From a virus (lineage: Duplodnaviria > Heunggongvirae > Uroviricota > Caudoviricetes), in the IMG/VR virus record IMGVR_UViG_2731957955_000011: a stretch of DNA of 33,875 bases, one strand, 5' to 3'. The stretch's first letter is position 1, and each line of letters opens with the position of its first letter. Shown here piece by piece: positions 1 through 32,289 of the stretch. The notes below the pieces were generated by a model. That model was not told the DNA's origin, ran no database searches, and was given only the letters and a program-made list of their open reading frames with translations. The translations under genes and the position numbers were made by a program.

Positions 1-789
1 GTGTATAAACACGGTGTCATCATTGACTGGATTATCAACTTTGTCTTTTAATTCATAGTTAATACTATATCGGGTATTATATTTCTCCGAAATAAACTTC
101 ACTTTACCATTCAATAATACATTCAGTACATCTTGATCAAGGTGGGTGATTTTACTTACCCAATCTGGGTCACGCAACATTTCAATAGCTTTTGACGAAA
201 TGTTATTTAGATTCCACTCATCAATATTTATCAGTAAAAAACCAGCATTGAAATATCCAGAAGCTAACTGTGGTGTAGTTAATACCGAGGCTCGATTTTG
301 CCACCATTCAACATCTCTTTCAGCTACAACTGCGGCAATTTCATTAGTAGAAAATTGATAATCTAAGAGTTCTTTAATACTACCCTTGCAAGCAATATCT
401 GCATCAAGATATAGTATTTTTTCATGTTTATGATAGAAATAATCTGCAATTATAAATCGAAAATATGTTGCGTAAGTCCAGTTTTTCGTGCTTGGTAATG
501 ACTTCAGCTTATCACAATTGATAACATAAATATTAATTCTTGAATTATATTGTTTTGCTAAATCAGAAAAATATAATTTGTCTTTATCACTGATATAATC
601 TGTGAAAACATGAAATTCACAAGAGATTTCTCTATTGTTTAATAGAATAGATGCGATGGCTACACCACATCCAAAAAGAAAATTTCTGTCAATACCAAAT
701 GCTATATCAAGAGTATTTTTAGATCTTATATTTTGATAATGAAAATTATACTCAAAAAGGATGATGTCACTATCATTGAGTTGAGACAT
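1..789 (-). CDS. LPS outer-core alpha-1,3-glycosyltransferase, GT8 family (WaaI/WaaO-like); partial, 3' end beyond window start
   Basis: Minus-strand frame open from ATG at 789..787 to position 1 (263 codons). My translation begins MSQLNDSDIILFEYNF and contains GT8 motifs LDADIA (DxD), GYFNAGFLLINIDEW and HLDQDVLN. Sits directly downstream of waaP. AT-rich compared with neighbours. Not in the ORF track because it is truncated by the window edge. Confidence 0.7.
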   Translation of the reverse strand, partial: MSQLNDSDIILFEYNFHYQNIRSKNTLDIAFGIDRNFLFGCGVAIASILLNNREISCEFHVFTDYISDKDKLYFSDLAKQYNSRINIYVINCDKLKSLPSTKNWTYATYFRFIIADYFYHKHEKILYLDADIACKGSIKELLDYQFSTNEIAAVVAERDVEWWQNRASVLTTPQLASGYFNAGFLLINIDEWNLNNISSKAIEMLRDPDWVSKITHLDQDVLNVLLNGKVKFISEKYNTRYSINYELKDKVDNPVNDDTVFIH

Positions 790-831
790 ATTTATTCTGT
801 ATCCAAAATTTTGGCAAAAATAAGTTACGGG

Positions 832-1629
832 TTACAACGATTTTCGAATCGTTCTTTCCCTGATTTTTGTGGCTTTTGCTTCTGCTTGCGACAGCAGTCC
901 TTGTTCCTGCTTGAGAATGTCTTTAAGCGGGGCGGCAAAATACACTTTCATAAACCGCCAGATATCCCGCTGAGTCAGGCCGATATTCATCGAAGAAAAA
1001 TAAAGCCCAATAAGATCTTTATCCCGCCAACGACGTGGAACGCGCGTGCGAAGCTGCGCCCGGTGCAGGTCAATTACCGAAATTTTTAACTCCTCTTCCT
1101 TACCGGAAAAAGGCAAGTGCAGCAGGAAATGACAGATATAACAGTCACGGTGGTTAATGCCCGCAGCATGCATATCGCGCACCATCGTCGCGACACGCTT
1201 AATAAGCATACGCTTTACGCGAACATCTGGAGGGTTAGTCGCCCAGTCAGCACTGTAATCTTCAAGACTTATGGTTGGTGTCAGATCTTCGGTAATAATA
1301 AATGAAGTTCTGGTCAGCGGATTCATGCCTTTTTCGCCAAATGCCACCCCATACATAGTATCAACGCCGACATCCCGCAGTCGATGAATCGCATTCCATT
1401 CGCGGTCAGCGCCTAATACTGGCATCCGCAATGAGAGTAAATTTTTGATTATCTCTTTCAGGGTCGTGCCGCGATGCCATTTGAGAAAATAGCTTTTGCC
1501 CGCCATTTCAAAGCGCAGAGTACGGCGAGTTTCCAGTTCACGAAATACCTCACCCTGCAAGGTTTTAACTTCCTCAAAAGGATCTTTGCCGCGCCATAAC
1601 GTGGCAAACGGCTCTTTAAGTTCAACCAT
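832..1629 (-). CDS. waaP: LPS core heptose(I) kinase WaaP
   Basis: ORF track 832..1638 (268 aa); sequence [28 protein letters not shown]... recognised as WaaP/RfaP. Start placed at the second in-frame ATG (MVELK), giving 265 aa; the alternative start is 1638. Overlaps the waaG 3' end. Confidence 0.9.
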
Positions 1630-2746
1630 CCAGACCACCCGTTATGATATCCGCCGCTTTCTCTGGCAGACTGTATAAATCTTGTGTATCAGCATAATGT
1701 CGCGCATTTTCCGCCCAGGCCTGGCGCAATGAAGATTGCGTTAACGCTTTGCGTAAAATCTCATTCAATGTTTCCTGGCGGAATGGCTCAGCAATAGCCT
1801 CGCCGCAATTAGCGTCGACAATATAATGCGCATAGCCACAAACGGCTGTTGTTAGTACCGGTAATCCTGCAGTAATCGCTTCCAGCAGCACAATTCCCGC
1901 CGCTTCCTGGTAGGCAGGATGCAGTAATAAATCCGCCGCCGCCATTAATTCCGAGACATCATTGCGCCCCGAGAAAAAGTGAACATTACTGCGCACGCCG
2001 CGTTTTTCTGCCAGCGCCTCAAATTTTCGCGGTTTATCCTGCCCAACAACATATAGCAATGTGTTGTGGCGCAGCGAATCCGGTAACGAAGCAAGTGCTT
2101 CAATGGAACGATCGACACCTTTACGCGTGAAGTCTGAACCGACCTGCAACAATAAATATTGTTGTTCGGTTATTCCATTCTTCTTACGGAAGATTTCACG
2201 GCTATTGGCTGGCTGCTGGCTATATTTACGATCAGGATAAATCCCCGGTGGCAGAATATGAAAACGCTCCGCTTCAGTCTGATAATGTTTCTGGAAATCG
2301 GCGATTTGCTTATCTGTCAGCATCAGCAGCTGTGTCGGCTTGCCCTGTTCGAAGGTTGCCCGCTCAAAGGCGGCATAATGGCGATAACGTGACGTCAGGC
2401 GATAGAAAAAGCCTTTTTCCTGCGCTACTTTCTCGGCATAACAAACATCAGCGGCATAATAAACGTCCAGCCCCGGCATTTTGTTGAATCCAACGACTTT
2501 ATCGACGGGATGTTCGCGTAAATGTTTTTGCACCCAGGCAAAATACTCCGCATTGCGCCCGTGATTGGTATGCGATTTAACCGGCACTTTGATCAGTTCA
2601 AATACATCAGGGCATTCGCCTTCCCACGACTGGGTATAAACCCGAACATGATGACCTCGGGCGGCGACTGTCTGAGCAATACGCATAAAATCACGCTGCA
2701 AACCGCCAAAGGGAAAATATTTATATAAACAAAAAGCAACGATCAT
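1622..2746 (-). CDS. waaG: LPS core glucosyltransferase I WaaG (GT4)
   Basis: 374-aa [42 protein letters not shown]... recognised as WaaG/RfaG. 4-bp overlap with the waaQ stop suggests translational coupling. Confidence 0.92.
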
Positions 2747-3801
2747 AACGACGTACCTGTCGTGGAGGAGGGCAGTAATTTATCGACAGCAGCAATGACA
2801 TCTGCCGCCGGAATAACCGAAAGATACATCTCATTTCGGTCACGCTGATCGCGCGTTGGCATTTCCCGGTAATCTCCCGCCCAGAATTGAATCATGTTAT
2901 TTGACCAGGGACGCCAGAAAATATGATCTGTCGCACCAAACAGCGATATCAGCGGCGTATTAACTGCAGCGGCAATATGCGCCGGTGCGGAATCAACGCC
3001 AATAAACAGCTGCGCATGATCGATTAACGCACCAAGTTCCGGGAAGGTCACCTTTCCAGCCAGCGCCGTTACTGGTGGCGTCTGGCATCCCTGCGCAATT
3101 TCATTGACGCAGGCCAGATCGTCTTTATCTGGGCCGGACGTCAGAACGACTTCATAACCACGAGCATGTAAGGCATCAATCACAGCGGAAAACTTGGCGT
3201 TGTCCCAGCATTTGAAGATTTGCCGCGCCGTAGGTTGGATAACCACATAATTTTGTCCAACACCAGCGTGATCAAGTTCGCGACGCATACGTTTCCAGCT
3301 TGCAGGCGGGTAACTCATGGTTGTCTGCTTCACCAACGAATCAAGTCCCAATGGTGTCAGCACGGATAAGTTACTTTCCACCACATTTCCACCCTGCAAC
3401 GGCACCAAATGGGTGAAACTTTTACGCCAAAAAGCAGACTGCCGATGATGATAATCCTGGGAAATTTTCACACGAGCATTTAATAAGCGAACCAGTATAG
3501 CAACCATCCATTGATCGGTAAGATTGACGATAAGGTCATACTTATTGGCACGTAATACCTTGATGAGATGAAAAAAGTTGGCAATTTTTTCTGAGGCTTT
3601 TGCTTTTTTATTTTTTATGCCGTAGAGCGCGTTAATCTCTGGATTTTCAGACAGGATCGGGATGGTGTCCTGATAAAGCAGCACATCGATTTTTGCGTCA
3701 GGGTAATTTTTTTTCAGCGAACTAATGACGGGAGTAGTTAATAACATATCCCCATGAAAACGCATCTTAATGAGCAAAATTCTTCGAAATGGCTTATCCA
3801 C
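2743..3801 (-). CDS. waaQ: LPS core heptosyltransferase III WaaQ (GT9)
   Basis: ORF ...RILLIKMRFHGDMLLTTPVISSLKKNYPDAKIDVLL... recognised as WaaQ/RfaQ. The ORF-track start at 3801 is a GTG; the first in-frame ATG (MRFHGDM) lies 36 nt downstream. Exact start uncertain. Confidence 0.85.
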   Translation of the reverse strand: MDKPFRRILLIKMRFHGDMLLTTPVISSLKKNYPDAKIDVLLYQDTIPILSENPEINALYGIKNKKAKASEKIANFFHLIKVLRANKYDLIVNLTDQWMVAILVRLLNARVKISQDYHHRQSAFWRKSFTHLVPLQGGNVVESNLSVLTPLGLDSLVKQTTMSYPPASWKRMRRELDHAGVGQNYVVIQPTARQIFKCWDNAKFSAVIDALHARGYEVVLTSGPDKDDLACVNEIAQGCQTPPVTALAGKVTFPELGALIDHAQLFIGVDSAPAHIAAAVNTPLISLFGATDHIFWRPWSNNMIQFWAGDYREMPTRDQRDRNEMYLSVIPAADVIAAVDKLLPSSTTGTSL

Positions 3802-3850
3802 AAGTAACTCTTTTTGTTGAGATTATCCGATTAAGGTGAAGCAGAAAAAG

Positions 3851-3862
3851 CACGCTACCGCC
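3851..3862 (-). promoter_or_regulatory. ops element (RfaH recruitment site, part of JUMPstart) in the waaQ operon leader
   Basis: Plus strand reads cacgctaccgcc at 3851..3862; the reverse complement GGCGGTAGCGTG is the 12-nt ops consensus on the waaQ coding strand, about 50 nt upstream of the waaQ start. Confidence 0.75.
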
Positions 3863-4213
3863 CCAGGCTCAACAGCTACCTGAATACTGATACCGCACTG
3901 ATATTGACGCGCTAGTGTATCACTTCTTTCGCGGCAATCCGACCCGAATGATTTTTAAGCACATTGTTGATTTTCAATAAAGAAATCAATCAAATAAAAT
4001 CATTAGCAACCATATTCTTTCACTGTTGCTCTGCGATTCCTTCCTGCACGTACAGCAGAAATCAATGAATCGCATAAAAATACAAAAAAAGTATAGATGT
4101 TCAGCAAGAATTGGCGGGTAAATTGCTATTTAAGTCAAAAACGGGAAAAGTAATGGTAAAGCCACAGCTAAATACATAGAATCCCCAGCACATCCATAAG
4201 TCAGCTATTTACT

Positions 4214-5978
<1,765 letters not shown>

Positions 5979-5985
5979 CGTTTAT

Positions 5986-6007
5986 GCCGGATGGTATGCC
6001 ATCCGGC
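5986..6007. terminator. perfect 9-bp hairpin between convergent coaD and mutM
   Basis: gccggatgg-tatg-ccatccggc, read directly; lies between the coaD stop (5978) and the mutM stop (6017). No strong U-tract, so function as terminator or REP-like element is inferred. Confidence 0.45.
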
Positions 6008-6016
6008 GCGCATGAA

Positions 6017-6826
6017 TTACTTCTGGCACTGCCGACAATAAAACGTTGCCCGCTGCGCATGTTTAGTCGCCACAATCGGCGTACCGCACACCCGACACGG
6101 CTCGCCTTTTCGCCCGTAAACCTGCAATTCCTGAGCGAAATAGCCCGGTTTACCATCACTTTGCAGAAAATCTTTCAGCGTTGTACCACCCTGCTCAATC
6201 GAACGCAGCAACACCGCTTTAATCACCCGAGCTAACAATTCACACTCTGCCAGCGACAGTGATGACGCCAGCCGATCCGGATGGATCCCCGCCGCAAACA
6301 GTGATTCGCTGGCATAGATATTCCCTACCCCTACCACCAGCTTGTTATCCATCAGCCACGGTTTAATCGCCGTTTTTTTCTTCGCGCACTTCTGATGCAG
6401 ATACTCACCATTGAAATCGTCGCTAAGCGGCTCCGGTCCAAGATGGGTCAGCACATTATGCCCTTCCAGCTCTTTGGTCCACAGCCAGGCACCAAAGCGG
6501 CGCGGATCGGTGTAGCGCAGCACTTTGCCGTTGCTCATCACCAATTCCACATGGTCATGCTTTTCAGGGGGAAGTTCTTCTGGAAGGATGCGCAGGCTGC
6601 CAGACATCCCTAAATGAATGATAATCCAGCCCTCAGGCAGCTCCAGCAGCAGATATTTAGCCCGCCGCTGCACGCTAAGCACTGGTTGGTCGCTTAAACG
6701 GTAGATCTCTTCTGAAACCGGCCAGCGCAAGCGTCCGTTGCGCACCACTGCATGAAGAATGGTTGCACCAACGAGATGCGGTTCTATGCCGCGGCGGCTG
6801 GTTTCAACTTCGGGTAATTCAGGCAT
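6017..6826 (-). CDS. mutM: formamidopyrimidine-DNA glycosylase MutM/Fpg
   Basis: 269-aa ORF starting [37 protein letters not shown]..., with the C-terminal zinc finger [24 protein letters not shown]. Confidence 0.93.
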
Positions 6827-6877
6827 AGCATCTCCAGGAATGAACAGATGCAGTCAATATGGGGGCAAGCAGATAAC

Positions 6878-6906
6878 AAAAAACCCCGCCGGAGCGAGGT
6901 TTTTTG
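6878..6906 (-). terminator. intrinsic terminator downstream of rpmG (between rpmG and mutM)
   Basis: On the minus strand: cctcgc-tccg-gcgggg hairpin (6 bp, one G-U pair) followed by uuuuuugu; flanked by an A-run on the other side. Confidence 0.5.
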
Positions 6907-6923
6907 TTACATCAAAGCGAGAA

Positions 6924-7094
<171 letters not shown>

Positions 7095-7111
7095 TTATTT
7101 CCTCTAAGTAC

Positions 7112-7369
<258 letters not shown>

Positions 7370-7564
7370 TTAGCTCGAGCTTCGTATGGGGTATTGGCGC
7401 CTCGTCAGGCTTTACAGCCCGGTCATCGCAGTTCTATGTGAACTCTCGATTGCCAGGCCCAAATGCCAAACCCGAGATTCTCAAAGGTGGCGTAGTATAC
7501 GCTGACTCAGCGATGTGCTCAAGTCCCGAACAGACAAAGATCCCGAAGGATCGCGCATAGCGGG

Positions 7565-8239
7565 TTAAATCCAGCCGCGTTCGGCAAAAGAAACATACTC
7601 TCCACGCCCAATCACGATATGGTCGAGCACGCGTAAATCCATGAACTGACAACTCTTTATTATCCGTTCAGTAATGAGTTTATCCGCTTTACTGGGTTCA
7701 GCACAACCCGAAGGGTGATTATGTGCAAGGATCAGCGCCGAGGCGTTTATTTTTATCGCTTCGCGGATAATTTCCCGAGGATGGACTTCAACATGGTTTA
7801 GCGTGCCGGAAAAAAGACGGCTATGCGTTATAACCCGGTGTTGGGAGTCGAGAAAGATCACCATAAAGATCTCCCGCTCCTCACCCGTGAGCTGGCTTTG
7901 TAAAAATTCCCTCGTCATCTCCGGGCTGAGTAAAGGGCTTTCTTCACGCATCCGCACGTTGTAGTAACGCCGCGCCAGTTCAGCAATCCCCTTTAACTGG
8001 GCAAATTTCGCCACGCCAATTCCATGAACGCCACTAAATTGTTCATATTCAGAGGTTAACAAGCCATAAAGAGAGCCGAAATTCTCCAGCATCTCTTTTG
8101 CCAGGGTTAATACATCTTTACCGCGCGTTCCGGTACGCAGAAATAGCGCCAGCAGCTCGACATCCGTTAAGGCGCTAATACCAAACTTCAGCATTTTTTC
8201 GCGCGGCATCAACAGCTGTGAATTGTTTTTCACCTTCAC
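7565..8239 (-). CDS. yicR: UPF0758 / RadC-like JAB-domain protein YicR
   Basis: 224-aa [45 protein letters not shown]... with the JAMM-like motif ILAHNHPSG. Confidence 0.9.
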
Positions 8240-8404
8240 CTCCTTTGTGGTGCTCGCATCCTGTCATAGCCGTTTCGTTAAATCGACGGCCAGTTTTCAA
8301 TCCTGGAAAGCGCCTCGCAAAGTGAATCTCAGGTGAAGGCACGACAACAAAAGTATTGTGATAAAATCGCCAACTTCTGGTGTCACCCTACAGGAAAAAT
8401 CATC

Positions 8405-9625
8405 ATGAGCCTGGCCGGTAAAAAAATCGTTCTCGGCGTTAGCGGCGGTATTGCTGCCTATAAAACCCCTGAACTGGTGCGTCGTTTGCGCGATCGCGGG
8501 GCCGACGTCCGCGTAGCCATGACCGAAGCGGCAAAAGCCTTTATCACCCCACTTAGCTTGCAGGCGGTTTCTGGTTATCCCGTTTCCGACAGTCTGCTGG
8601 ACCCGGCAGCCGAAGCCGCTATGGGCCATATTGAGCTGGGTAAATGGGCTGATTTAGTGATTCTCGCCCCTGCCACGGCAGATTTGATTGCCCGTATTGC
8701 TGCCGGAATGGCGAATGACCTGGTATCGACGATTTGTCTGGCTACACCTGCGCCTGTAGCCGTGCTCCCCGCCATGAACCAGCAGATGTACCGTGCCGCT
8801 GCCACGCAGCATAATTTAGAGGTGCTTGCTTCCCGTGGTATGCTCATCTGGGGGCCAGACAGTGGCAGTCAGGCTTGTGGTGATATCGGTCCTGGGCGAA
8901 TGCTCGATCCGTTAACCATTGTGGATATGGCGGTGGCGCATTTTTCGCCCGTCAACGACCTGAAACATCTGAACATTATGATTACCGCCGGCCCGACGCG
9001 TGAACCGCTCGATCCGGTGCGTTATATCTCTAATCACAGCTCCGGCAAGATGGGTTTTGCTATCGCCGCCGCCGCTGCCCGTCGTGGCGCGAACGTCACG
9101 CTGGTATCAGGTCCGGTTTCACTACCGACGCCACCGTTTGTTAAACGTGTTGATGTGATGACTGCGCTGGAAATGGAAGCCGCCGTGAATGCTTCTGTAC
9201 AGCAGCAAAATATTTTTATCGGTTGCGCCGCCGTGGCGGATTATCGCGCAGCTACCGTGGCCCCAGAGAAAATCAAAAAGCAGGCCACGCAGGGTGATGA
9301 ATTAACAATAAAAATGGTTAAAAACCCCGATATCGTCGCAGGCGTTGCCGCACTAAAAGACCATCGACCCTACGTCGTTGGATTTGCCGCCGAAACAAAT
9401 AATGTGGAAGAATACGCCCGGCAAAAACGTATCCGTAAAAACCTTGATCTGATCTGCGCGAACGATGTTTCCCAGCCAACTCAAGGATTTAACAGCGACA
9501 ACAACGCATTACACCTTTTCTGGCAGGACGGAGATAAAGTCTTACCGCTTGAGCGCAAAGAGCTCCTTGGCCAATTATTACTCGACGAGATCGTGACCCG
9601 TTATGATGAAAAAAATCGACGTTAA
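8405..9625 (+). CDS. coaBC: bifunctional phosphopantothenoylcysteine decarboxylase / synthetase CoaBC (Dfp)
   Basis: In-frame ATG at 8405 gives [28 protein letters not shown]... (406 aa); the ORF-track start at 8333 is an upstream extension. Confidence 0.93.
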
Positions 9626-10061
9626 GATTCTGGACCCGCGCGTTGGGAAGGAATTTCCGCTCCCGACTTATGCCACCTCTGGCTCTGCCGGACTTGACCT
9701 GCGTGCCTGTCTCGACGACGCCGTAGAACTGGCTCCGGGTGACACTACGCTGGTTCCGACCGGGCTGGCGATTCATATTGCCGATCCTTCACTGGCGGCA
9801 ATGATGCTGCCGCGCTCCGGATTGGGACATAAGCACGGTATCGTGCTTGGTAACCTGGTAGGATTGATCGATTCCGACTATCAGGGCCAGTTGATGATTT
9901 CCGTGTGGAACCGTGGTCAGGACAGCTTCACCATTCAACCTGGCGAACGCATCGCCCAGATGATTTTTGTTCCGGTAGTACAGGCTGAATTTAATCTGGT
10001 GGAAGATTTCGACGCCACCGACCGCGGTGAAGGCGGCTTTGGTCACTCTGGTCGTCAGTAA
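9603..10061 (+). CDS. dut: dUTP diphosphatase Dut
   Basis: 152-aa [39 protein letters not shown]...; overlaps the coaBC 3' end by about 20 nt in another frame. Confidence 0.93.
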
Positions 10062-10167
10062 CACATACGCATCCGAATAACGTCATAACATAGCCGCAAA
10101 CATTTCGTTTGCGGTCATAGCGTGGGTGCCGCCTGGCAAGTGCTTATTTTCAGGGGTATTTTGTAAC

Positions 10168-10764
10168 ATGGCAGAAAAACAAACTGCGAAAAGGAACCGT
10201 CGCGAGGAAATACTTCAGTCTCTGGCGCTGATGCTGGAATCCAGCGATGGAAGCCAACGTATCACGACGGCAAAACTGGCCGCCTCTGTCGGCGTTTCCG
10301 AAGCGGCACTGTATCGCCACTTCCCCAGTAAGACCCGCATGTTCGATAGCCTGATTGAGTTTATCGAAGATAGCCTGATTACTCGCATCAACCTGATTCT
10401 GAAAGATGAGAAAGACACCACAGCGCGCCTGCGTCTGATTGTGTTGCTGCTTCTCGGTTTTGGTGAGCGTAATCCTGGCCTGACCCGCATCCTCACTGGT
10501 CATGCGCTGATGTTTGAACAGGATCGCCTGCAAGGGCGTATCAACCAGCTGTTCGAGCGTATTGAAGCGCAGCTGCGCCAGGTATTGCGTGAAAAGAGAA
10601 TGCGTGAGGGTGAAGGTTACACCACCGATGAAACCCTGCTGGCAAGCCAGATCCTGGCCTTCTGTGAAGGTATGCTGTCACGTTTTGTCCGCAGCGAATT
10701 TAAATACCGCCCGACGGATGATTTTGACGCCCGCTGGCCGCTAATTGCCGCGCAGTTGCAGTAA
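10168..10764 (+). CDS. slmA: nucleoid occlusion factor SlmA (TetR family)
   Basis: In-frame ATG at 10168 gives [52 protein letters not shown]... (198 aa). Confidence 0.92.
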
Positions 10765-10769
10765 TATGA

Positions 10770-10793
10770 CGCCGGATGACTTTTCATCCGGCG
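10770..10793. terminator. 10-bp hairpin between convergent slmA and pyrE
   Basis: c-gccggatga-cttt-tcatccggc-g, read directly; followed on the plus strand by gtttcttt. Lies between the slmA stop (10764) and the pyrE stop (10801). Confidence 0.5.
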
Positions 10794-10800
10794 AGTTTCT

Positions 10801-11442
10801 TTAAACGCCAAACTCTTCGCGATAGGCCTTAACCGCCGCCAGATGTTCCGCCATTTCCGGCTTCTCTTCCAGATAGGCAATCAGATCTTTCAGGGTGATG
10901 ATAGAGATCACTTTGCAGTTGTAATCACGCTCAACTTCCTGAATCGCCGAAATCTCGCCGCGCCCCCGTTCCTGACGATCAAGCGAAATCAATACGCCAG
11001 CAAGCGTCGCGCCATTAGCCTGAATAATCTCCATCGATTCGCGAATCGCCGTTCCGGCGGTGATCACATCATCTACCAGCATTACGCGTCCTTGTAACGC
11101 GCTACCAACCAGATTGCCGCCTTCACCGTGGTCTTTTGCCTCTTTGCGGTTAAAGCAGTACGGCAGGTCAAGGTCATGATGCTCCGCCAGCGCCACGGCG
11201 GTAGTGGTCGCAATCGGGATCCCTTTGTAAGCAGGGCCAAACAGCAGATCGAACTCAATGCCAGAATCCACCAATGCTTCAGCGTAAAAACGGCCTAACA
11301 GTGCCAGGTCGCGCCCGGTATTAAACAGCCCGGCGTTGAAGAAATAGGGGCTTTTGCGCCCGGATTTCAGCGTAAACTCGCCAAACTTTAACACCTGCTT
11401 GCTAAGCGCAAATTCAATAAACTGGCGCTGATATGGTTTCAT
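10801..11442 (-). CDS. pyrE: orotate phosphoribosyltransferase PyrE
   Basis: In-frame ATG at 11442 gives [40 protein letters not shown]... (213 aa); preceded by an aggag Shine-Dalgarno. Confidence 0.93.
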
Positions 11443-11474
11443 GCCTTCGCTCCTCATCTTACTTTTCTACAGAC

Positions 11475-11500
11475 AAAAAAAAGGCGACTCATCAGTCGCC
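11475..11500 (-). terminator. pyrE attenuator (intrinsic terminator in the rph-pyrE intercistronic leader)
   Basis: Minus strand reads ggcgact-gatg-agtcgcc followed by eight U (plus-strand A-run 11475..11482), about 35 nt upstream of the pyrE start and just after the rph stop. Matches the known UTP-sensitive pyrE attenuator arrangement. Confidence 0.65.
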
Positions 11501-11507
11501 TTAAAAA

Positions 11508-12224
11508 TCAGTTTGCCAGCGCCGCCTTCTGCGTCGCTACAATGGATTCGATTCCCCCTCGGGCCAGCGCCAACAAGGTGAGTAGCTCTTCATGGGTGAA
11601 CGGCTCGCCTTCTGCCGTCCCCTGCACTTCAATGATGCGCCCGTCTTCGGTCATCACTACGTTCATGTCGGTCTCTGCGGCTGAGTCTTCAACGTATTCC
11701 AGATCGCAAATTGCTTCACCGTTTACAATACCGACAGAAACTGCGGCTACCATCCCTTTCATCGGGTTGGTTTTCAGCTTGCCGTTTTCCACCAGCTTCT
11801 GTAGCGCATCTGCCAGCGCCACGCAGGCACCCGTAATCGACGCGGTACGCGTGCCACCATCAGCCTGAAGCACGTCGCAGTCCAGCGTAATGGTGAACTC
11901 ACCCAGCGCTTTCAAATCTACTGCCGCGCGAAGAGCACGGGCGATCAGACGCTGGATTTCCATTGTGCGTCCACCCTGCTTACCTTTCGCCGCTTCACGA
12001 GCGTTACGGGTGTGGGTAGAACGTGGCAGCATGCCGTACTCTGCGGTGATCCAGCCCTGGCCCTGACCTTTCAGGAAGCGCGGCACGCCTTCTTCAATAG
12101 AGGCGGTACACAACACTTTGGTATCGCCAAATTCGACCAGCACCGAGCCTTCTGCATGTTTTGTATAGTTACGAGTCAGGGTAACGGGACGCACCTGATT
12201 ATTGCTACGGCCTGCTGGACGCAT
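11508..12224 (-). CDS. rph: ribonuclease PH (full length, no rph-1 frameshift)
   Basis: In-frame ATG at 12224 gives [46 protein letters not shown]... ending ...[11 protein letters not shown] (238 aa). Confidence 0.92.
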
Positions 12225-24618: not shown

Positions 24619-26010
24619 ATGTCTGTTTCCACCCTCGAGTCAGAAAATGCGCAACCGGTTGCGCAGACTCAAAACAGCGAACTGATTTACCGTCTTGAAG
24701 ATCGTCCGCCGCTTCCTCAAACCCTGTTTGCCGCCTGTCAGCATCTGCTGGCGATGTTCGTTGCGGTGATCACGCCAGCGCTATTAATCTGCCAGGCGCT
24801 GGGTTTACCGGCACAAGACACGCAACACATTATTAGTATGTCGCTGTTTGCCTCCGGTGTGGCATCGATTATTCAAATTAAGGCCTGGGGTCCGGTTGGC
24901 TCCGGGCTGTTGTCTATTCAGGGCACCAGCTTCAACTTTGTTGCCCCGCTGATTATGGGCGGTACCGCGCTGAAAACCGGTGGTGCTGATGTTCCTACCA
25001 TGATGGCGGCTTTGTTCGGCACGTTGATGCTGGCAAGTTGCACCGAGATGGTGATCTCCCGCGTTCTGCATCTGGCGCGCCGCATTATTACGCCGCTGGT
25101 TTCTGGCGTTGTGGTGATGATTATCGGCCTGTCGCTAATTCAGGTTGGGTTAACGTCCATTGGCGGCGGTTACGCAGCCATGAGCGATAACACCTTCGGC
25201 GCACCGAAAAATCTGCTGCTGGCAGGCGTGGTCTTAGCCTTAATTATCCTGCTTAACCGTCAACGTAACCCTTACTTACGCGTGGCCTCACTGGTGATTG
25301 CGATGGCGGCCGGATATGCGCTGGCGTGGTTTATGGGCATGTTGCCAGAAAGCAACGAACCGATGACGCAAGAACTGATTATGGTGCCAACGCCGCTCTA
25401 TTACGGTCTTGGCATTGAATGGAGTCTGCTGCTGCCGCTGATGCTGGTCTTTATGATCACTTCGCTGGAAACCATTGGCGATATCACGGCGACCTCTGAC
25501 GTTTCCGAACAGCCAGTGTCCGGTCCGCTGTACATGAAACGCCTGAAAGGTGGCGTGCTGGCAAACGGCCTGAACTCGTTTGTTTCGGCGGTGTTTAACA
25601 CCTTCCCGAACTCCTGCTTCGGGCAAAACAACGGAGTGATCCAGTTGACTGGTGTTGCCAGCCGCTATGTCGGTTTTGTCGTCGCGCTGATGTTGATCGT
25701 GCTGGGTCTGTTCCCGGCAGTGAGCGGTTTTGTACAACACATTCCAGAACCGGTTCTGGGCGGCGCAACGCTTGTAATGTTTGGCACCATCGCCGCCTCC
25801 GGTGTGCGTATCGTTTCTCGTGAGCCGCTGAACCGTCGGGCGATTCTGATTATCGCGCTGTCGCTGGCGGTTGGTCTGGGCGTGTCTCAGCAGCCGCTGA
25901 TTTTGCAGTTTGCCCCTGAATGGCTGAAAAACCTGCTCTCCTCCGGGATCGCCGCGGGCGGTATTACTGCCATCGTGCTGAATCTGATTTTCCCACCAGA
26001 AAAACAGTAA
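24619..26010 (+). CDS. xanP: xanthine permease XanP (NCS2 family)
   Basis: In-frame ATG at 24619 gives [56 protein letters not shown]... (463 aa); the ORF-track start at 24610 is a TTG extension. Confidence 0.9.
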
Positions 26011-26017
26011 TTCACTG

Positions 26018-26042
26018 GCGGCGGTAAGATAATTACCGCCGC
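26018..26042. terminator. perfect 10-bp hairpin just after the xanP stop (putative terminator or stability element)
   Basis: gcggcggtaa-gataa-ttaccgccgc, read directly; no adjacent U-tract on the plus strand, so terminator function is uncertain. Confidence 0.35.
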
Positions 26043-26130
26043 AGTCTCACCTCTTTCACCATTCCCGCCTTGAGGATTGCGCGTAAATCGTGCATAACTC
26101 CCTTATGTGCATTTCACGGGATGGAAGACC

Positions 26131-27840
26131 ATGAAATTTATTGGGAAGCTGCTTCTCTACATTCTCATCGCTCTGTTAGTGGTGATCGCTGGCCTCTATT
26201 TTCTTCTGCAAACCCGCTGGGGAGCAGAACATATCAGCGCATGGGTTTCCGAGAATAGCGACTATCATCTGGCCTTCGGGGCGATGGATCACCGTTTTTC
26301 CGCGCCATCTCATATCGTGCTGGAGAACGTCACGTTTGGCCGTGATGGCCAGCCCGCGACCCTGGTGGCAAAAAGTGTCGACATTGCGCTAAGCAGTCGG
26401 CAACTGACCGAACCACGCCATGTCGATACCATCCTGCTGGAAAACGGGACGCTGAATCTCACCGACCAGACCGCGCCGCTACCGTTCAAAGCCGATCGTC
26501 TGCAACTGCGTGATATGGCGTTTAATAGCCCGAATAGCGAATGGAAACTGAGCGCGCAGCGGGTAAATGGCGGCGTAGTTCCGTGGTCACCAAAAGCCGG
26601 TAAAGTGCTGGGTACGAAGGCGCAGATTCAGTTTAGTGCCGGATCGCTTTCGCTCAATGATGTTCCTGCCACCAATGTACTGATTGAAGGCAGTATTGAT
26701 AACGATCGCGTTACGCTGACTAACCTGGGTGCCGACATCGCCCGCGGGACATTAACCGGAAACGCGCAGCGTAACGCCGACGGCAGCTGGCAAGTGGAAA
26801 ACCTGCGCATGGCGGATATACGTCTACAAAGCGAAAAATCGCTAACCGACTTCTTTGCGCCATTACGCTCTGTCCCGTCGTTGCAGATTGGTCGCCTGGA
26901 AGTGATCGATGCTCGTTTGCAAGGTCCGGACTGGGCGGTGACCGACCTCGATCTCAGCTTGCGCAACATGACCTTCAGTAAAGATGACTGGCAGACACAG
27001 GAAGGCAAACTGTCGATGAACGCTAGCGAGTTCATTTATGGTTCGCTGCATTTATTTGACCCGATTATAAACGCGGAATTTTCCCCGCAGGGCGTAGCGC
27101 TGCGCCAGTTCACCAGCCGCTGGGAAGGGGGTATGGTCAGAACGTCAGGGAACTGGCTGCGTGACGGGAAAACGTTGATCCTTGATGATGTGGCAATTGC
27201 CGGGCTGGAATATACCTTGCCGAAAAACTGGCAACAGTTGTGGATGGAAACGACACCCGGTTGGTTAAACAGCCTGCAACTGAAGAGATTTAGCGCCAGC
27301 CGCAATCTGATCATTGATATCGACCCTGACTTCCCGTGGCAGCTCACCGCGCTCGATGGTTACGGTGCCAACCTGACGCTGGTTACCGATCATAAATGGG
27401 GCGTCTGGAGTGGCTCGGCGAATCTGAATGCCGCCGCCGCGACATTCAATCGTGTTGATGTTCGTCGCCCGTCGCTGGCGCTGACCGCCAACAGCAGCAC
27501 GGTGAATATCAGCGAACTGAGTGCATTTACTGAAAAAGGCATTCTGGAAGCCACCGCCAGTGTTTCACAAACGCCACAACGTCAGACACATATCAGCCTG
27601 AATGGACGCGGTGTGCCGGTGAATATTTTGCAACAGTGGGGATGGCCTAAATTACCGTTGACTGGCGACGGCAATATTCAGCTTACCGCCAGTGGCGATA
27701 TTCAGGCCAATGTCCCGTTGAAACCTACGGTTAGCGGGCAATTGCATGCCGTGAACGCCGCAAAGCAGCAAGTGACTCAAACCATGAATGCTGGCATCGT
27801 TTCCAGCGGTGAAGTTACATCGACGGAGCCGGTGCGGTAA
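26131..27840 (+). CDS. yicH: AsmA-family protein YicH
   Basis: In-frame ATG at 26131 gives MKFIGKLLLYILIALLVVIAGLYFLLQTRWGAEHISAWVSENSDYHLAFGAMDH... (569 aa) with an N-terminal membrane anchor. Confidence 0.88.
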   Translation: MKFIGKLLLYILIALLVVIAGLYFLLQTRWGAEHISAWVSENSDYHLAFGAMDHRFSAPSHIVLENVTFGRDGQPATLVAKSVDIALSSRQLTEPRHVDTILLENGTLNLTDQTAPLPFKADRLQLRDMAFNSPNSEWKLSAQRVNGGVVPWSPKAGKVLGTKAQIQFSAGSLSLNDVPATNVLIEGSIDNDRVTLTNLGADIARGTLTGNAQRNADGSWQVENLRMADIRLQSEKSLTDFFAPLRSVPSLQIGRLEVIDARLQGPDWAVTDLDLSLRNMTFSKDDWQTQEGKLSMNASEFIYGSLHLFDPIINAEFSPQGVALRQFTSRWEGGMVRTSGNWLRDGKTLILDDVAIAGLEYTLPKNWQQLWMETTPGWLNSLQLKRFSASRNLIIDIDPDFPWQLTALDGYGANLTLVTDHKWGVWSGSANLNAAAATFNRVDVRRPSLALTANSSTVNISELSAFTEKGILEATASVSQTPQRQTHISLNGRGVPVNILQQWGWPKLPLTGDGNIQLTASGDIQANVPLKPTVSGQLHAVNAAKQQVTQTMNAGIVSSGEVTSTEPVR

Positions 27841-27851
27841 ACATCAATCTC

Positions 27852-27878
27852 GCCGGGTACGACTCAGACGTACCCGGC
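27852..27878. terminator. perfect 10-bp hairpin between convergent yicH and yicI
   Basis: gccgggtacg-actcaga-cgtacccggc, read directly; lies between the yicH stop (27840) and the yicI stop (27893). No clear U-tract on either strand. Confidence 0.4.
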
Positions 27879-27892
27879 ATTCCATCAATAGA

Positions 27893-30211
27893 TTACAACG
27901 TAATTGTCAGCGCATTCCCTTGAGGCTTCACCACCAGCCCCTGCTCACTTTCAGCCTGCGAACCGTCTTGCAGACCATTTACTTTCACAACATTGCGCAG
28001 GCACAGCGTCCAGTTCTTCGCCTCGCCCGCACCAGTCACAGTAATCGTGTTGCCAGTACGTGCTGCTTTTAAAGTAAAGATCACCGATCCGTCAGTAGCG
28101 GGCACTTCACAGACGGCTTCATGCCCGTCTTGCAGATTAAAGAGGTGGAATGCCGTGCCTTCGTGCCACACGTAATCGGGACGTTGATCGTTGTTGCCCA
28201 GCGCCAGTAGGGTGTTATCACGCACATAAATGGGCAGACTCAGGAAGCTGTGCTGCTGTTTATGCCAGCGACTACCGTCGAGCTCATCGTTGTGCCACAG
28301 GTGTGTCCAGCGACCTTCCGGCAGGTAGAACTGCACATCGCCCGCTTCAGTGAACACCGGCGCAACCATCACGTTGTCGCCTAACATGTATTGACGGTCA
28401 AGGTAATCACAAGCCGGATCGTCCGGGAACTCCATCATCATGGCCCGCATCATCGGCGTACCCCGCGCGTTCGCACGCGCAGCTTCACGATACAGATACG
28501 GCATCATGCGGCATTTCAGTTGCGTGAAGAAGCGCACCACATCACAGGACTCATCATCGTAGGCCCACGGCACACGATAAGATTTGCTACCGTGTAAACG
28601 GCTATGGCTGGAGAGCAAACCAAACGCGCACCAGCGTTTGTAAACGTGCGCCGGAGCGGTATTTTCAAAGCCGCCGATATCGTGGCTCCAGAAGCCAAAA
28701 CCTGAAAGGCCAATAGACAAACCACCGCGCAGGCTTTCCGCCATTGATTCGTAGTTAGCGTAACAATCGCCACCCCAGTGTACCGGGAATTTCTGCGCAC
28801 CGACGGAGGCCGAGCGGGCAAACAAGACAGCTTCTTCCTCACCAACGGTGTCCTTGAGCACGTTCCACACCAGTTCGTTGTAGATGTACGCATAATGGTT
28901 ATGCATTTTCTGCGGATCGGAACCGTCAAACCACTGAACATCAGTTGGGATACGTTCGCCAAAGTCGGTCTTAAAGCAATCAACGCCCATCGCGACCAGA
29001 CCTTTCAGTTTGTCGGCGTACCATTTGCAGGCATCCGGATTGGTAAAGTCATAAATCGCCAGACCTGGCTGCCATTTATCCCACTGCCATAGCGAACCGT
29101 CCGGGCGTTTGAGTAAATAGCCTTTCTCTTGTAACTCTTTAAAGACGGGGGATTTTTGACCGATATAGGGGTTAATCCAGACGCAGATTTTCAGTCCTTT
29201 CGCTTTCAGGCGGCGGATCATCCCTTCCGGGTCAGGGAAAGTCAGCGGGTCCCACTCAAAATCGCACCACTGGAAGGCTTTCATCCAGAAACAGTCAAAG
29301 TGGAAAACATGCAGCGGCAGATTGCGTTCCGCCATACCATCGATAAAGCTGTTTACCGTCGCTTCGTCGTAGTTGGTGGTAAATGAAGTGGTTAGCCACA
29401 GGCCGAAGGACCACGCGGGCGGCAGCGCCGGACGACCAGTAAAGCGGGTATAACGATCAAGTACCGCTTTCGGCGTCGGGCCGTCGATAACAAAGTATTC
29501 GAGATATTCACTCTCAACGCTGAACTGCACTTTGGAGACTTTCTCCGATCCCACTTCAAAAGAGACACACTGGGGATGATTGACCAGTACCCCATAACCA
29601 CGGTTAGTCATGTAGAACGGGATATTTTTATACGCCTGTTCAGTACTTGTGCCGCCGTCCCGGTTCCAGGTCTCTACCGTCTGGCCATTGCGCACCAGGG
29701 CAGTAAAGCGCTCTCCCAGACCGTAAACTGTTTCGCCAACGCCAAGATCAAGCCGCTCAAACATATAATTGCGTTGATTATTCGTGTCCTGCACGTAGCC
29801 ATTATTTTTCACCTGACTACCGGTAATACGTTCGCCGTTGCGCAGAAAATCCAGTGACCAGAACTCACCTTTGCTGACACGCGCGCTTAAGTTGCCACTT
29901 TTAAACTCAGCATAACGTTCTGTGTTTTCGATTGTGACCTTCACGTCCTGCAAAATATTGAGCGGATAATGAGGACCGTTATTCAGCGCCCCCTGAAAAT
30001 GCTCAATCCGCACACCGACAATACCTTCCTGTGGGGAGAAAAAGCGCAACGTAAATAAAGGAGTATCAAGCTGCCAGGTACGTTCACGCACATCACGGGG
30101 GGCAGCATAGACCACCATTTCATTATCCTGCTGTTCAACCTCGAACACCTGAAGCGGGTGAATCAAATTGAGGCCAGGTTGAATCAACCAGTTTCCATCG
30201 CTAATTTTCAT
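27893..30211 (-). CDS. yicI: alpha-xylosidase YicI (glycoside hydrolase family 31)
   Basis: 772-aa [56 protein letters not shown]... with GH31 catalytic-region motifs (WINPY, KTDFGE). Confidence 0.92.
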
Positions 30212-30220
30212 TGCCGTTCC

Positions 30221-31603
30221 TTAGTTCTGCACTTCTTGAGAGGTGAATTGTTGCTGGCAACGGCGTTTACCCTGAGCCAGCTGTTCCATAACGGTTTTCA
30301 GATTGTGCGTCGTGAGTGAGTAGTAGCGTTTAGCGATAATCGCGCTCAGCAAATAACAGATCGCCGGAACAATCGTGAATAGCGCAATAATGATGCTAAT
30401 CGTGGCGCTGTTCTGCGCTTTTTCTGCCGCATCATATCCGCCATAAGCCAGCATCCAGCCGATAAGAGCGCCGCCGAAGGCCAACCCCAGTTTGAGCACA
30501 AACAGCGTGCCAGCAAAACTGATCCCGGTCAGGCGTTTACCATTGCACCACTCGCCGTAGTCGACGGTATCGGACATCATTACCCACTGGATAGGTGTCA
30601 CCAGTTGATGCAACACACCAATCACGAAGATGAAGACAAACATAGTGATGCTGGCCTGCATGGGAACAAAGAACATCGCGAGGCTAATCACTGCCAGCAG
30701 GGCGTTCGTCCACCAGAAGATAGTGACTTTACATTTCCAGTCGGTCAGAGGTTTTGCCAGTGCGGAACCAATCAGGTTACCCACGCAATAAGTGGTGAGA
30801 AAAGCGACAAACACTTCCGGCGTGCCCAAAATCCATGTGACGTAATACATCATCGCCCCACCGCGTACGCACACCGCCAGGATATTGAAAATGGTTAGTA
30901 AACCGACAATCCGCCACTGGTCGTTTTGCCAGATATCACGTAAATCTTCCCGCATAGACGTTGTTGTAGGTGGTGCTTCAACGCGTTCTTTAGTGGTGAA
31001 GAAACAAAATGCCAGCATCATGAATGCCACCACGGAAAGGACCGCGATACCGCCCTGGAAACCGAGTGGTTTATTATCACCGCCAATTAAATTAACCAGT
31101 GGCATCATCAGAACAGTAGAAAGCATGCCTCCCGCGGTCGCCAGCACAAAACGCCAGGATTGCAGCGAGATACGCTGAGTCGGGTCATTGGTGATTACAC
31201 CACCCAATGCGCAGTAAGGGATATTGACGACGGTATAAAGTAAGGTAAGTAGGGTGTAAGTAATTGCTGCATAGATCATTTTGCCGTTCATACTGAGATC
31301 TGGCGTGCTATAGGCCAGTACACAGACGATCCCGAATGGCAGTGCGCCAAACAGTACCCACGGACGAAATTTACCCCAGCGAGAGCGCGTTCGATCGGCC
31401 AACAACCCCATGCAAGGATCGGAAATCGCATCCAGTGCACGAGCGACCAAAAACATGGTTCCGACAAATCCGGCAGGAATGCCAAAAATATCGGTATAAA
31501 AGAACATCATATATAACATTACGTTATCGAAAATAATGTGGCTGGCGGCGTCTCCCATGCCATAACCAATTTTCTCTTTAACGGACAACACTTCACTCTT
31601 CAT
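30221..31603 (-). CDS. yicJ: GPH-family (glycoside-pentoside-hexuronide) sugar:cation symporter YicJ
   Basis: In-frame ATG at 31603 gives MKSEVLSVKEKIGYGMGDAASHIIFDNVMLYMMFFYTDIFGIPAGFVGTMFLVARALDAISDP... (460 aa); 9 nt upstream of yicI, so a likely yicJI operon. Confidence 0.9.
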   Translation of the reverse strand: MKSEVLSVKEKIGYGMGDAASHIIFDNVMLYMMFFYTDIFGIPAGFVGTMFLVARALDAISDPCMGLLADRTRSRWGKFRPWVLFGALPFGIVCVLAYSTPDLSMNGKMIYAAITYTLLTLLYTVVNIPYCALGGVITNDPTQRISLQSWRFVLATAGGMLSTVLMMPLVNLIGGDNKPLGFQGGIAVLSVVAFMMLAFCFFTTKERVEAPPTTTSMREDLRDIWQNDQWRIVGLLTIFNILAVCVRGGAMMYYVTWILGTPEVFVAFLTTYCVGNLIGSALAKPLTDWKCKVTIFWWTNALLAVISLAMFFVPMQASITMFVFIFVIGVLHQLVTPIQWVMMSDTVDYGEWCNGKRLTGISFAGTLFVLKLGLAFGGALIGWMLAYGGYDAAEKAQNSATISIIIALFTIVPAICYLLSAIIAKRYYSLTTHNLKTVMEQLAQGKRRCQQQFTSQEVQN

Positions 31604-31858
31604 CTGCTTTTCCTTGATGCTATAGGGGTGCTGAGACCGATAACGCATTTTGTAAACCATCCCTGTGAGAGCGAATATTCCGATATCTGGTTATTAATTT
31701 ATGATTCTTGTTTTATGTGATCGTGGTAGCGTTAATTCCGCTCATATATCATTGTAAAATATGGGTTTTATATGAACTATAATGCTTTCGTGATAATACG
31801 CTGCGTGTATTAGGCGGAAAAAACTGATCTGGGGGATGTAGAAACTCAAGGAAGTAGC

Positions 31859-31864
31859 TATAAT
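31859..31864 (+). promoter_or_regulatory. candidate -10 hexamer (TATAAT) of the selC promoter
   Basis: Perfect tataat 32 nt upstream of the mature tRNA 5' end, followed by a GC-rich discriminator-like sequence; no good -35 seen. Confidence 0.35.
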
Positions 31865-31895
31865 GCGCCCCGCCTCCATGTAGCAATCGAGGCGC

Positions 31896-32254: not shown

Positions 32255-32289
32255 CAGGAAGATGAATTCATCAAAAGCCGGAGGATGTC

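What the first reader, a model, noticed from the sequence alone, without database searches (positions are those of the whole stretch)
1..831. Non-K-12 LPS core type: AT-rich GT8 glycosyltransferase follows waaP where K-12 has waaS
The gene after waaP encodes a GT8-family transferase (DxD, YFNAGFLLINIDEW motifs). That is the arrangement of R1/R3/R4 core types (waaO or waaI), not K-12. Its low GC relative to waaP/G/Q fits horizontally exchanged outer-core cassettes. Core type affects phage and serum susceptibility.
Basis: partly seen in the sequence, partly recalled or inferred. Interest (0 to 1): 0.35.

Follow-up and report, generated by a model that had tools for sequence, protein, structure and literature searches.

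The report
R3 LPS core gene waaI
The stretch is the first 263 codons of waaI, the well-known galactosyltransferase gene of the R3-type lipopolysaccharide core.

Summary
On the minus strand, window 789..1 is an open frame of 263 codons that runs off the window edge. It begins 42 bases after the waaP stop codon. It is a family 8 glycosyltransferase (GT8; Pfam PF01501, E 1.6e-64) with the DAD, DQD and YFNAGFLLINIDEW motifs. Its GC content is 30%, against 47-48% for waaP, waaG and waaQ.

- All 33,875 bases of the window are identical to E. coli O104:H4 FDAARGOS_349. There the operon continues waaI-waaY-waaJ-waaD, with waaL on the opposite strand, which is the R3 layout.
- Published R3 typing primers give the expected 1,021-bp product in that genome.
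- Published waaI deletion primers for the R3 prototype F653, O157:H7 and Shigella flexneri match the window exactly.
- The protein is 51-55% identical to WaaO of R1, R4, K-12 and R2, and 63% identical to Salmonella WaaI.

About 25% of complete E. coli genomes carry this gene. One correction: R2 loci also have a different GT8 gene after waaP, so "GT8 after waaP" only excludes K-12. Verdict: already known, low interest.

The parts
1..789 (-). waaI, codons 1-263 of 335. It encodes the R3-type LPS outer-core alpha-1,3-galactosyltransferase (GT8). The gene is cut by the window edge.
   Evidence: Translation. Pfam PF01501 E 1.6e-64. NCBIfam NF011718 470.7 bits. 100% DNA identity to O157:H7, O55:H7 and O104:H4. 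Published waaI primers match exactly.
397..405 (-). Codons for D129-A130-D131, the DXD metal-binding motif.
   Evidence: Aligns with D103-I-D105 of LgtC (PDB 1GA8/1G9R). Invariant in 34 LPS GT8 proteins.
130..138 (-). Codons for D218-Q219-D220, the DQD active-site motif.
   Evidence: Aligns with D188-Q189-D190 of LgtC. Invariant in alignment A3.
214..255 (-).
   Evidence: Y179, F180, N181, G183 and W192 are invariant across A3.
1..3 (-). Codon for H263, the third predicted metal ligand and the last residue inside the window.
   Evidence: Aligns with H244 of LgtC. Invariant in A3.
790..831 (-). The 42-base AT-rich spacer between the waaP stop codon and the waaI start codon.
   Evidence: GC 0.286. 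The 80-nt homology arm of the F653 'R3-waaI-up' primer (PMC9927288) matches 787-866 with no mismatch. No terminator-like site inside the spacer.
832..1629 (-). waaP (rfaP), the LPS core heptose(I) kinase and the conserved gene upstream of waaI.
   Evidence: Pfam PF06293 E 4.4e-75. NCBIfam NF011703 480 bits. RefSeq coordinates.
1622..2746 (-). waaG, the glucosyltransferase I (GT4) that adds the Glc I acceptor on which WaaI acts.
   Evidence: Pfam GT4/GT1 domains. RefSeq annotation.
2743..3801 (-). waaQ, heptosyltransferase III and the first gene of the operon.
   Evidence: NCBIfam NF007742 714 bits.
3851..3889 (-). JUMPstart leader element upstream of waaQ, the regulatory leader of the operon that contains waaI.
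   Evidence: Rfam RF01707, 55.2 bits against a gathering score of 35, E 3.4e-10.

Best explanation
Window 1-789 (minus strand) is the 5' 79% of waaI, the fourth gene of the waaQ operon of an R3-type LPS core locus, in the chromosome of E. coli O104:H4 or an indistinguishable strain.

WaaI is a retaining, metal-dependent GT8 glycosyltransferase that acts at the cytoplasmic face of the inner membrane. It transfers galactose from UDP-galactose in alpha-1,3 linkage onto glucose I of the outer core, the residue added by WaaG. This creates hexose II. WaaJ then extends that residue with glucose, and the rest of the R3 outer core is built on it.

The operon is transcribed from upstream of waaQ through a JUMPstart leader. 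From general knowledge of JUMPstart-led operons, this implies RfaH-dependent antitermination.

The low GC belongs to the whole exchangeable outer-core cassette (waaI-waaY-waaJ-waaD-waaL), which moves between E. coli lineages by homologous recombination in the conserved flanks.

Shown here: gene identity, family, catalytic motifs, operon context and R3 typing of an identical genome. Taken from the literature: galactose as the sugar added and hexose II as its position. Inferred by homology to LgtC: the metal-dependent retaining mechanism.
For: Source genome and R3 typing.
- The whole window has 0 mismatches in 33,875 bases against O104:H4 FDAARGOS_349.
- In that genome and in strain 55989 the operon reads waaQ-G-P-[this gene, 335 aa]-waaY-[UDP-Glc:(galactosyl)LPS a1,2-GlcT]-[GT4]. 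waaL lies next on the opposite strand and runs in the same direction as hldD-waaF-waaC.
- The R3 typing primers of PMC13293308 give the expected 1,021-bp product in both genomes. The primers for R1, R2, R4 and K-12 are absent from the O104:H4 locus.

Gene identity.
- Deletion primers that three independent papers call waaI match the window exactly. They come from O157:H7 ATCC 43895 (PMC11394844), the R3 prototype F653 (PMC9927288; 80 of 80 nt) and S. flexneri 2457T (PMC3184986).
- PMC9927288 states that waaI adds the galactose at hexose II of R3. [quoted passage not shown]

Relation to other enzymes.
- Identity is 100% to R3 WaaI, 51-55% to WaaO of R1, R4, K-12 and R2, and 35-37% to WaaJ, WaaR, WaaT and WaaW.
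- Identity is 63% to Salmonella enterica WaaI, identified by its waaB-waaI-waaJ-waaY-waaZ context.
- In a neighbour-joining tree the R3 protein lies outside the K-12/R2 WaaO clade and outside the R1/R4 WaaO clade, both recovered in 200 of 200 bootstraps. It joins the Salmonella-containing group in 141 of 200.

Family and catalytic residues. Pfam and NCBIfam hits. The closest solved structure is LgtC at E 9e-18, with D129/D131/H263 and D218-Q219-D220 aligned to its D103/D105/H244 and D188-Q189-D190.

Regulation and composition. JUMPstart element. GC figures.
Against: Nothing contradicts this reading.

Limits:
- The last 72 codons, including the GT8 C-terminal domain (PF08437, 75.4 bits in the identical full-length gene), and the rest of the cassette lie outside the window. 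R3 typing therefore rests on genomes identical to the window, not on the window itself.
- Donor-sugar specificity cannot be read from sequence with these tools.
- The grouping with Salmonella WaaI has only 70% bootstrap support.
- One paper (PMC11394844, Methods) loosely calls WaaI a glucosyltransferase.
- The RefSeq gene name is 'waaO'.
Confidence: 0.95

Rival explanations
1. It is waaO of an R1 or R4 core locus, a UDP-glucose:(glucosyl)LPS alpha-1,3-glucosyltransferase. This was the other option the first reader left open.
For: R1 and R4 loci also place a GT8 of the same subfamily directly after waaP. RefSeq names this gene 'waaO'.
Against: Only 51-53% protein identity to R1/R4 WaaO, and DNA identity of only about 67-71% over part of the length. 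The R1/R4 clade excludes it in 200 of 200 bootstraps. In genomes identical to the window the next genes are waaY-waaJ-waaD, not waaT-waaY-waaW. R1 and R4 typing primers are absent.
Confidence: 0.01
2. It is the R2-specific GT8 gene that follows waaP in R2 loci, probably the gene PMC13293308 calls wabA.
For: R2 loci carry a GT8 gene in exactly this position, in 503 of 5,426 genomes.
Against: That protein is only 34% identical to the window's protein. It scores 183.6 bits on NF011718, below the cut-off of 461, whereas the window fragment scores 470.7. R2 primers are absent.
Confidence: 0.005
3. The gene is waaI by descent but is inactive in the source strain, or it uses a donor other than UDP-galactose.
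For: The 3' 72 codons cannot be seen in the window. From my own recollection, not checked here, in vitro work on LPS GT8 enzymes (Leipold, Vinogradov and Whitfield, J Biol Chem 2007) reported relaxed donor specificity. The neighbouring gene waaJ is annotated as frameshifted in one O157:H7 assembly, so pseudogenes do occur in this cassette.
Against: All catalytic motifs are intact. The same 335-aa protein (WP_000080643.1) is annotated intact in O157:H7, 55989 and O104:H4. All 1,364 carrier genomes match at least 80% of the 831-base query, and 1,099 of them at 99% identity or more. Deleting this exact gene truncates the core in F653 and S. flexneri, and the authors assign it the galactose residue.
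Confidence: 0.03

Closest known systems
WaaI of the E. coli R3 core type (prototype F653; O157:H7; Shigella flexneri 2a)
   Same: Identical. The DNA of 1-831 is 100% identical to O157:H7, O55:H7 and O104:H4, and the protein is 100% identical in S. flexneri. Published waaI primers match exactly. Operon position is the same.
   Different: Nothing, apart from truncation at the window edge.
WaaI of Salmonella enterica (UDP-galactose:(glucosyl)LPS alpha-1,3-galactosyltransferase)
   Same: Same subfamily and same assigned reaction. 63% identity over the full length. Same NCBIfam equivalog, NF011718. Groups with it in the tree in 141 of 200 bootstraps.
   Different: In Salmonella the gene follows waaB rather than waaP, and the downstream genes are waaJ-waaY-waaZ.
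WaaO of E. coli K-12/R2 and of R1/R4 (alpha-1,3-glucosyltransferases that add hexose II)
   Same: Same GT8 subfamily and same step (hexose II onto Glc I). Same length and motifs. In R1/R4 it holds the same position after waaP.
   Different: 51-55% identity and separate clades with 100% bootstrap support. The hexose II that K-12 WaaO adds is glucose, where R3 waaI adds galactose (PMC9927288).
LgtC of Neisseria meningitidis (PDB 1GA8, 1G9R, 1SS9), a retaining GT8 alpha-1,4-galactosyltransferase
   Same: The closest solved structure, E 9e-18 over residues 27-273. The DXD, DQD and His motifs align. It also uses UDP-Gal and acts on a lipooligosaccharide.
   Different: Low identity, a different linkage (alpha-1,4 onto lactose) and a different C-terminal region.
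R3-like cassette of Citrobacter freundii M-21, Silvania spp., Pseudescherichia and Enterobacter sp.
   Same: Same order, waaQ-G-P-waaI-waaJ-waaD with convergent waaL, in C. freundii M-21 and Silvania confinis. WaaI is 70-73% identical in all four genera. In C. freundii M-21, WaaJ is 72%, WaaD 77% and WaaL 65% identical.
   Different: No waaY between waaI and waaJ. The GC dip is less extreme, 35-45%.

Membership tests
Glycosyltransferase family 8 (Pfam PF01501) | Significant match to the Glyco_transf_8 profile above its gathering score | tested here: met
   218.3 bits against 24.3, E 1.6e-64, residues 29-263 on profile positions 2-241 of 253.
Glycosyltransferase family 8 (Pfam PF01501) | DXD motif and a downstream His that bind the divalent metal (D103, D105 and H244 in LgtC) | tested here: met
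   D129, D131 and H263 align to them and are invariant in 34 homologues. Their role as LgtC ligands is from my knowledge of the LgtC structure paper (Persson et al. 2001).
Glycosyltransferase family 8 (Pfam PF01501) | DQD active-site motif (D188-Q189-D190 in LgtC) | tested here: met
   D218-Q219-D220 align and are invariant.
Glycosyltransferase family 8 (Pfam PF01501) | GT-A fold and retention of anomeric configuration | not tested
   No structure was predicted. Only the truncated window fragment could have been submitted. Both features are inferred from homology to LgtC.
Glycosyltransferase family 8 (Pfam PF01501) | C-terminal GT8C domain (PF08437) typical of the LPS enzymes | tested here: inconclusive
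   It lies outside the window. It is present (75.4 bits) in the full-length gene of 55989, whose first 263 residues are identical to the window's.
WaaI of the R3 core type | Sequence identity with the gene experimentally deleted and named waaI in R3 strains | tested here: met
   Exact matches of the F653, O157:H7 43895 and S. flexneri 2457T primers. 100% identity to the O157:H7 gene.
WaaI of the R3 core type | Located directly downstream of waaP | tested here: met
   A 42-base spacer after the waaP stop codon.
WaaI of the R3 core type | Followed by waaY-waaJ-waaD, with waaL on the opposite strand | tested here: met
   These genes are outside the window. The feature is met in O104:H4 FDAARGOS_349, which is identical to all 33,875 bases of the window, and in 55989. 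It is also met in a genome carrying the 98.4% allele.
WaaI of the R3 core type | R3-specific typing amplicon (waaD-waaJ, 1,021 bp; PMC13293308) | tested here: met
   In silico product of 1,021 bp in L002 and L090. Primers of the other four types are absent from L090. The amplicon lies outside the window.
WaaI of the R3 core type | Transfers galactose (UDP-Gal donor) in alpha-1,3 linkage to Glc I | not testable with these tools
   Literature statements only (PMC9927288 and PMC3184986). Tree placement with Salmonella WaaI gives moderate support (141 of 200).
WaaO (R1/R4 or K-12/R2 glucosyltransferase) | Falls in one of the two WaaO clades, whose members are 89% or more identical to each other | tested here: not met
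   51-55% identity. Excluded from both clades in 200 of 200 bootstraps.
K-12 core type | waaS directly after waaP | tested here: not met
   K-12 reference locus. K-12 WaaS has no Pfam match, whereas the gene after waaP in the window is a GT8.

The most novel reading that the evidence does not exclude
The only mildly new point concerns the cassette, not the gene. The R3 outer-core cassette (waaI-waaJ-waaD plus convergent waaL) has diverged orthologues at the same chromosomal site in Citrobacter freundii and Silvania, with WaaI orthologues also in Pseudescherichia and an Enterobacter (65-77% protein identity in C. freundii, no waaY).

A 2021 survey (PMC8715443) reported no homologue of the variable region outside Escherichia and Shigella. 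Under the novel reading, R3 was not invented within E. coli. It was either exchanged with these genera or inherited from a common Enterobacteriaceae ancestor, with waaY inserted later.
Probability: 0.4. Interest if true: 0.2.

Novelty: already known. Interest (0 to 1): 0.05.

Why it matters
It matters little beyond correct annotation. Knowing that the strain has an R3 core is practically useful. R3 dominates phylogroups B1, D and E and LEE-positive strains (PMC8715443). The outer core is a receptor for many phages and the attachment site of the O antigen. The window adds nothing new to this. The gene, its product, its operon and its distribution are all described, and the window is identical to a sequenced outbreak-lineage genome.

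Tried and rejected
- I tested whether the gene is waaO of R1/R4. It is not: low identity, different downstream genes and separate clades.
- I tested the R2-specific GT8 that also follows waaP. It is only 34% identical.
- I considered using the RefSeq and NCBIfam product name ('3-alpha-galactosyltransferase') as evidence for the donor sugar. I rejected this because the same name is given to K-12 WaaO and to every orthologue.
- A promoter and terminator scan of 1-4300 found fewer sites than shuffled controls and nothing in the waaP-waaI spacer.
- A first bootstrap run with Biopython timed out. I redid it with my own neighbour-joining code.
- The Kaniuk et al. 2004 paper on R3 assembly is not held in the library.
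- I did not predict a structure. Only the truncated fragment, without an alignment, could have been submitted, and the answer did not depend on it.
- I did not use the large protein-database searches. The E. coli genome collection and the species-representative genomes were enough.

Full report
**What is in the sequence**

Reading the minus strand from window position 789 gives an ATG followed by 263 sense codons that run off the window at position 1. The ORF lister omits this frame only because it leaves out ORFs that run off an end. The start codon lies 42 bases after the stop codon of waaP (832-1629). waaP is preceded by waaG (1622-2746) and waaQ (2743-3801), all on the minus strand.

The fragment matches Pfam Glyco_transf_8 at E 1.6e-64. 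It matches NCBIfam NF011718 at 470.7 bits, above that model's cut-off of 461 although a fifth of the protein is missing.

GC content is 0.303 for the fragment, against 0.474, 0.482 and 0.467 for waaP, waaG and waaQ and 0.509 for the window. Third-position GC is 0.228, against 0.46-0.48.

**Where the window comes from**

The 831 bases are 100% identical to O157:H7, O55:H7 and many other E. coli chromosomes. 1,364 of 5,426 complete genomes (25%) carry the gene at 90% identity or more, always once and always on the chromosome. The remaining genomes have only homologues of 60-80% identity.

Bases 1-25000 are 100% identical to strain 55989 and to O104:H4 outbreak-lineage genomes. Bases 25001-33875 are 100% identical to O104:H4 genomes only. 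A direct comparison shows 0 mismatches over all 33,875 bases against O104:H4 FDAARGOS_349.

**Which core type**

I fetched a reference locus for each arrangement.

| Type | Locus and call | Gene order after waaQ-G-P |
|---|---|---|
| K-12 | L003, | S-B-O-J(R)-Y-Z-U |
| R1 | L006 and L007, | O-T-Y-W-V(GT2)-L |
| R4 | L008, | O-T-Y-W-X(GT25)-L |
| R2 | L004, | GT8-B-O-J-Y-Z-K |
| K-12/R2 hybrid (E2348/69) | L005, | S-B-O-J-Y-Z-K |
| R3 (O157:H7, 55989, O104:H4) | | [this gene]-Y-[a1,2-glucosyltransferase]-[GT4] |

In the R3 loci, waaL follows on the opposite strand. That is the published R3 order, waaQGPIYJD plus waaL.

The R3 typing primers of PMC13293308 give the predicted 1,021-bp product in 55989 and in O104:H4. 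The R1, R2, R4 and K-12 primers are absent from the O104:H4 locus. A genome carrying the 98.4% allele has the same layout.

**Is it waaI?**

Three independent papers give deletion primers for a gene they call waaI, and all match the window exactly:
- O157:H7 ATCC 43895 (PMC11394844): 43 of 43 nt at 747-789.
- The R3 prototype strain F653 (PMC9927288): 80 of 80 nt at 787-866.
- S. flexneri 2457T (PMC3184986): 30 of 30 nt at 757-786.

PMC9927288 states that waaI encodes the transferase that adds the galactose at hexose II of the R3 outer core. [quoted passage not shown] Both report that deleting the gene truncates the core.

**Relation to other enzymes**

The fragment is 100% identical to the R3 protein. 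It is 51-53% identical to WaaO of R1, R4, K-12 and R2, and 36-37% identical to WaaJ, WaaR, WaaT and WaaW. For the full-length protein the figures are 52-55% and 35-37%.

A scan of species-representative genomes found these levels of identity:
- identical or 98% identical copies in Shigella flexneri and other Escherichia, plus three short contigs filed under unrelated names (see the side observations);
- 70-73% in Silvania, Citrobacter freundii, Pseudescherichia and an Enterobacter;
- 63% in Salmonella enterica.

The Salmonella gene lies in the expected waaB-waaI-waaJ-waaY-waaZ context.

In a neighbour-joining tree the R3 protein sits with the Citrobacter/Silvania group in 198 of 200 bootstraps. 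It joins the Salmonella-containing group in 141 of 200. The K-12/R2 WaaO clade and the R1/R4 WaaO clade are each recovered in 200 of 200 and exclude it. So it is WaaI and not WaaO.

The RefSeq name 'waaO: lipopolysaccharide 3-alpha-galactosyltransferase' is given to all of these, including K-12 WaaO. It carries no information on the sugar.

**How it works**

The closest solved structure is LgtC of Neisseria, a retaining GT8 galactosyltransferase (E 9e-18). In that alignment:
- D129 and D131 fall on LgtC D103 and D105;
- H263, the last residue encoded in the window, falls on H244;
- D218-Q219-D220 fall on D188-Q189-D190.

All of these columns are invariant in 34 LPS GT8 proteins. From the LgtC literature (my own knowledge), the two aspartates and the histidine hold the Mn2+ that binds the UDP-sugar diphosphate, and the DQD segment lines the site of transfer.

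The inferred mechanism is therefore metal-dependent, configuration-retaining transfer of galactose from UDP-Gal to O-3 of Glc I, the residue added by WaaG. The product is the acceptor for WaaJ.

The C-terminal 72 residues, which include the GT8C domain, are outside the window.

A JUMPstart element (Rfam RF01707, 55.2 bits) lies upstream of waaQ at 3851-3889. No terminator-like site lies between waaP and waaI. Both facts are consistent with waaI being transcribed as the fourth gene of the waaQ operon. RfaH-dependent antitermination is my inference from general knowledge of JUMPstart-led operons.

**The low GC**

In the R3 locus of O157:H7 PV15-279 (L001), the low GC covers the whole variable block: waaI 0.312, waaY 0.309, waaJ 0.306, waaD 0.370 and waaL 0.352. 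The conserved genes on both sides are 0.47-0.54. The window and O157:H7 have no difference in bases 1-1177 but 86 differences in bases 1178-11831. This fits a cassette shared by recombination between a phylogroup B1 lineage and a phylogroup E lineage, as PMC8715443 proposes for core-type exchange.

Two refinements apply. First, the open choice resolves to waaI of R3. Second, a GT8 after waaP is not exclusive to R1, R3 and R4. R2 loci carry a different GT8 (326 aa, 34% identical) in that position, in 503 of 5,426 genomes. This is probably the gene PMC13293308 calls wabA.

**Verdict**

This is a known gene of a known core type in a known genome. It is worth annotating correctly, but it is not a discovery.

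Noticed in passing
window 3851-3889 (-): JUMPstart RNA element (Rfam RF01707, 55.2 bits against a gathering score of 35) in the waaQ leader. It is the regulatory leader of the operon that contains the finding's gene.
   Followed up: partly
window 31896-33875: The tRNA-Sec gene selC (31896-31990, +) is followed by a 394-aa tyrosine recombinase/integrase (32290-33474, +) and the start of an IS1 copy (about 33593-33875). This is the left end of a genomic island inserted at selC in O104:H4. Strain 55989 has only a rhuM pseudogene fragment there, followed by setC. This junction is what distinguishes the window from 55989.
   Followed up: partly
L004 10887-11867 (E. coli strain 1283, R2-type locus): R2 loci have a distinct GT8 gene (326 aa, Pfam PF01501 E 9e-50, 34% identical to WaaI, no similarity to K-12 WaaS) directly after waaP. 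It occurs in 503 of 5,426 complete genomes. It is probably the 'wabA' named in PMC13293308.
   Followed up: partly
L020 8001-12535 (Citrobacter freundii M-21); L016 and L018 (Silvania): An R3-like cassette, waaI-waaJ-waaD with convergent waaL but without waaY, lies at the same site between waaP and waaC in L020 and L016. WaaI is 71-73% identical in all three loci. In L020, WaaJ is 72%, WaaD 77% and WaaL 65% identical, and GC is 35-45%. PMC8715443 reported no homologue of the variable region outside Escherichia and Shigella.
   Followed up: partly
window 1-1177 versus 1178-11831, compared with O157:H7 PV15-279 (L001): There are no mismatches in waaI plus the 3' part of waaP, but 86 mismatches in the next 10.6 kb. 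This suggests a recombination boundary inside waaP and recent sharing of the cassette between lineages.
   Followed up: no
L001 9012-10024 (O157:H7 strain PV15-279): The gene in the waaJ position of this O157:H7 assembly is annotated as frameshifted, whereas it is intact in 55989 and O104:H4. This is either a sequencing error or a strain with a truncated R3 core.
   Followed up: no
L003, L006, L008 and all hits: RefSeq (PGAP, model NF011718) names every WaaO/WaaI orthologue 'waaO: lipopolysaccharide 3-alpha-galactosyltransferase', including K-12 WaaO, whose added hexose II is glucose (PMC9927288). It also labels R3 WaaD a GlcNAc transferase. From my recollection of Kaniuk et al. 2004, not checked here, WaaD is a glucosyltransferase. 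The automatic names should not be used to infer the sugar.
   Followed up: partly
L010, L012, L014 (contigs of 3-6 kb filed under Clostridium, Coprosoma and Avacholeplasma): Three short contigs in metagenome-assembled genomes of unrelated Firmicutes and Tenericutes carry a waaI 100% identical to the E. coli gene. They are almost certainly E. coli contigs placed in the wrong genome bin.
   Followed up: no
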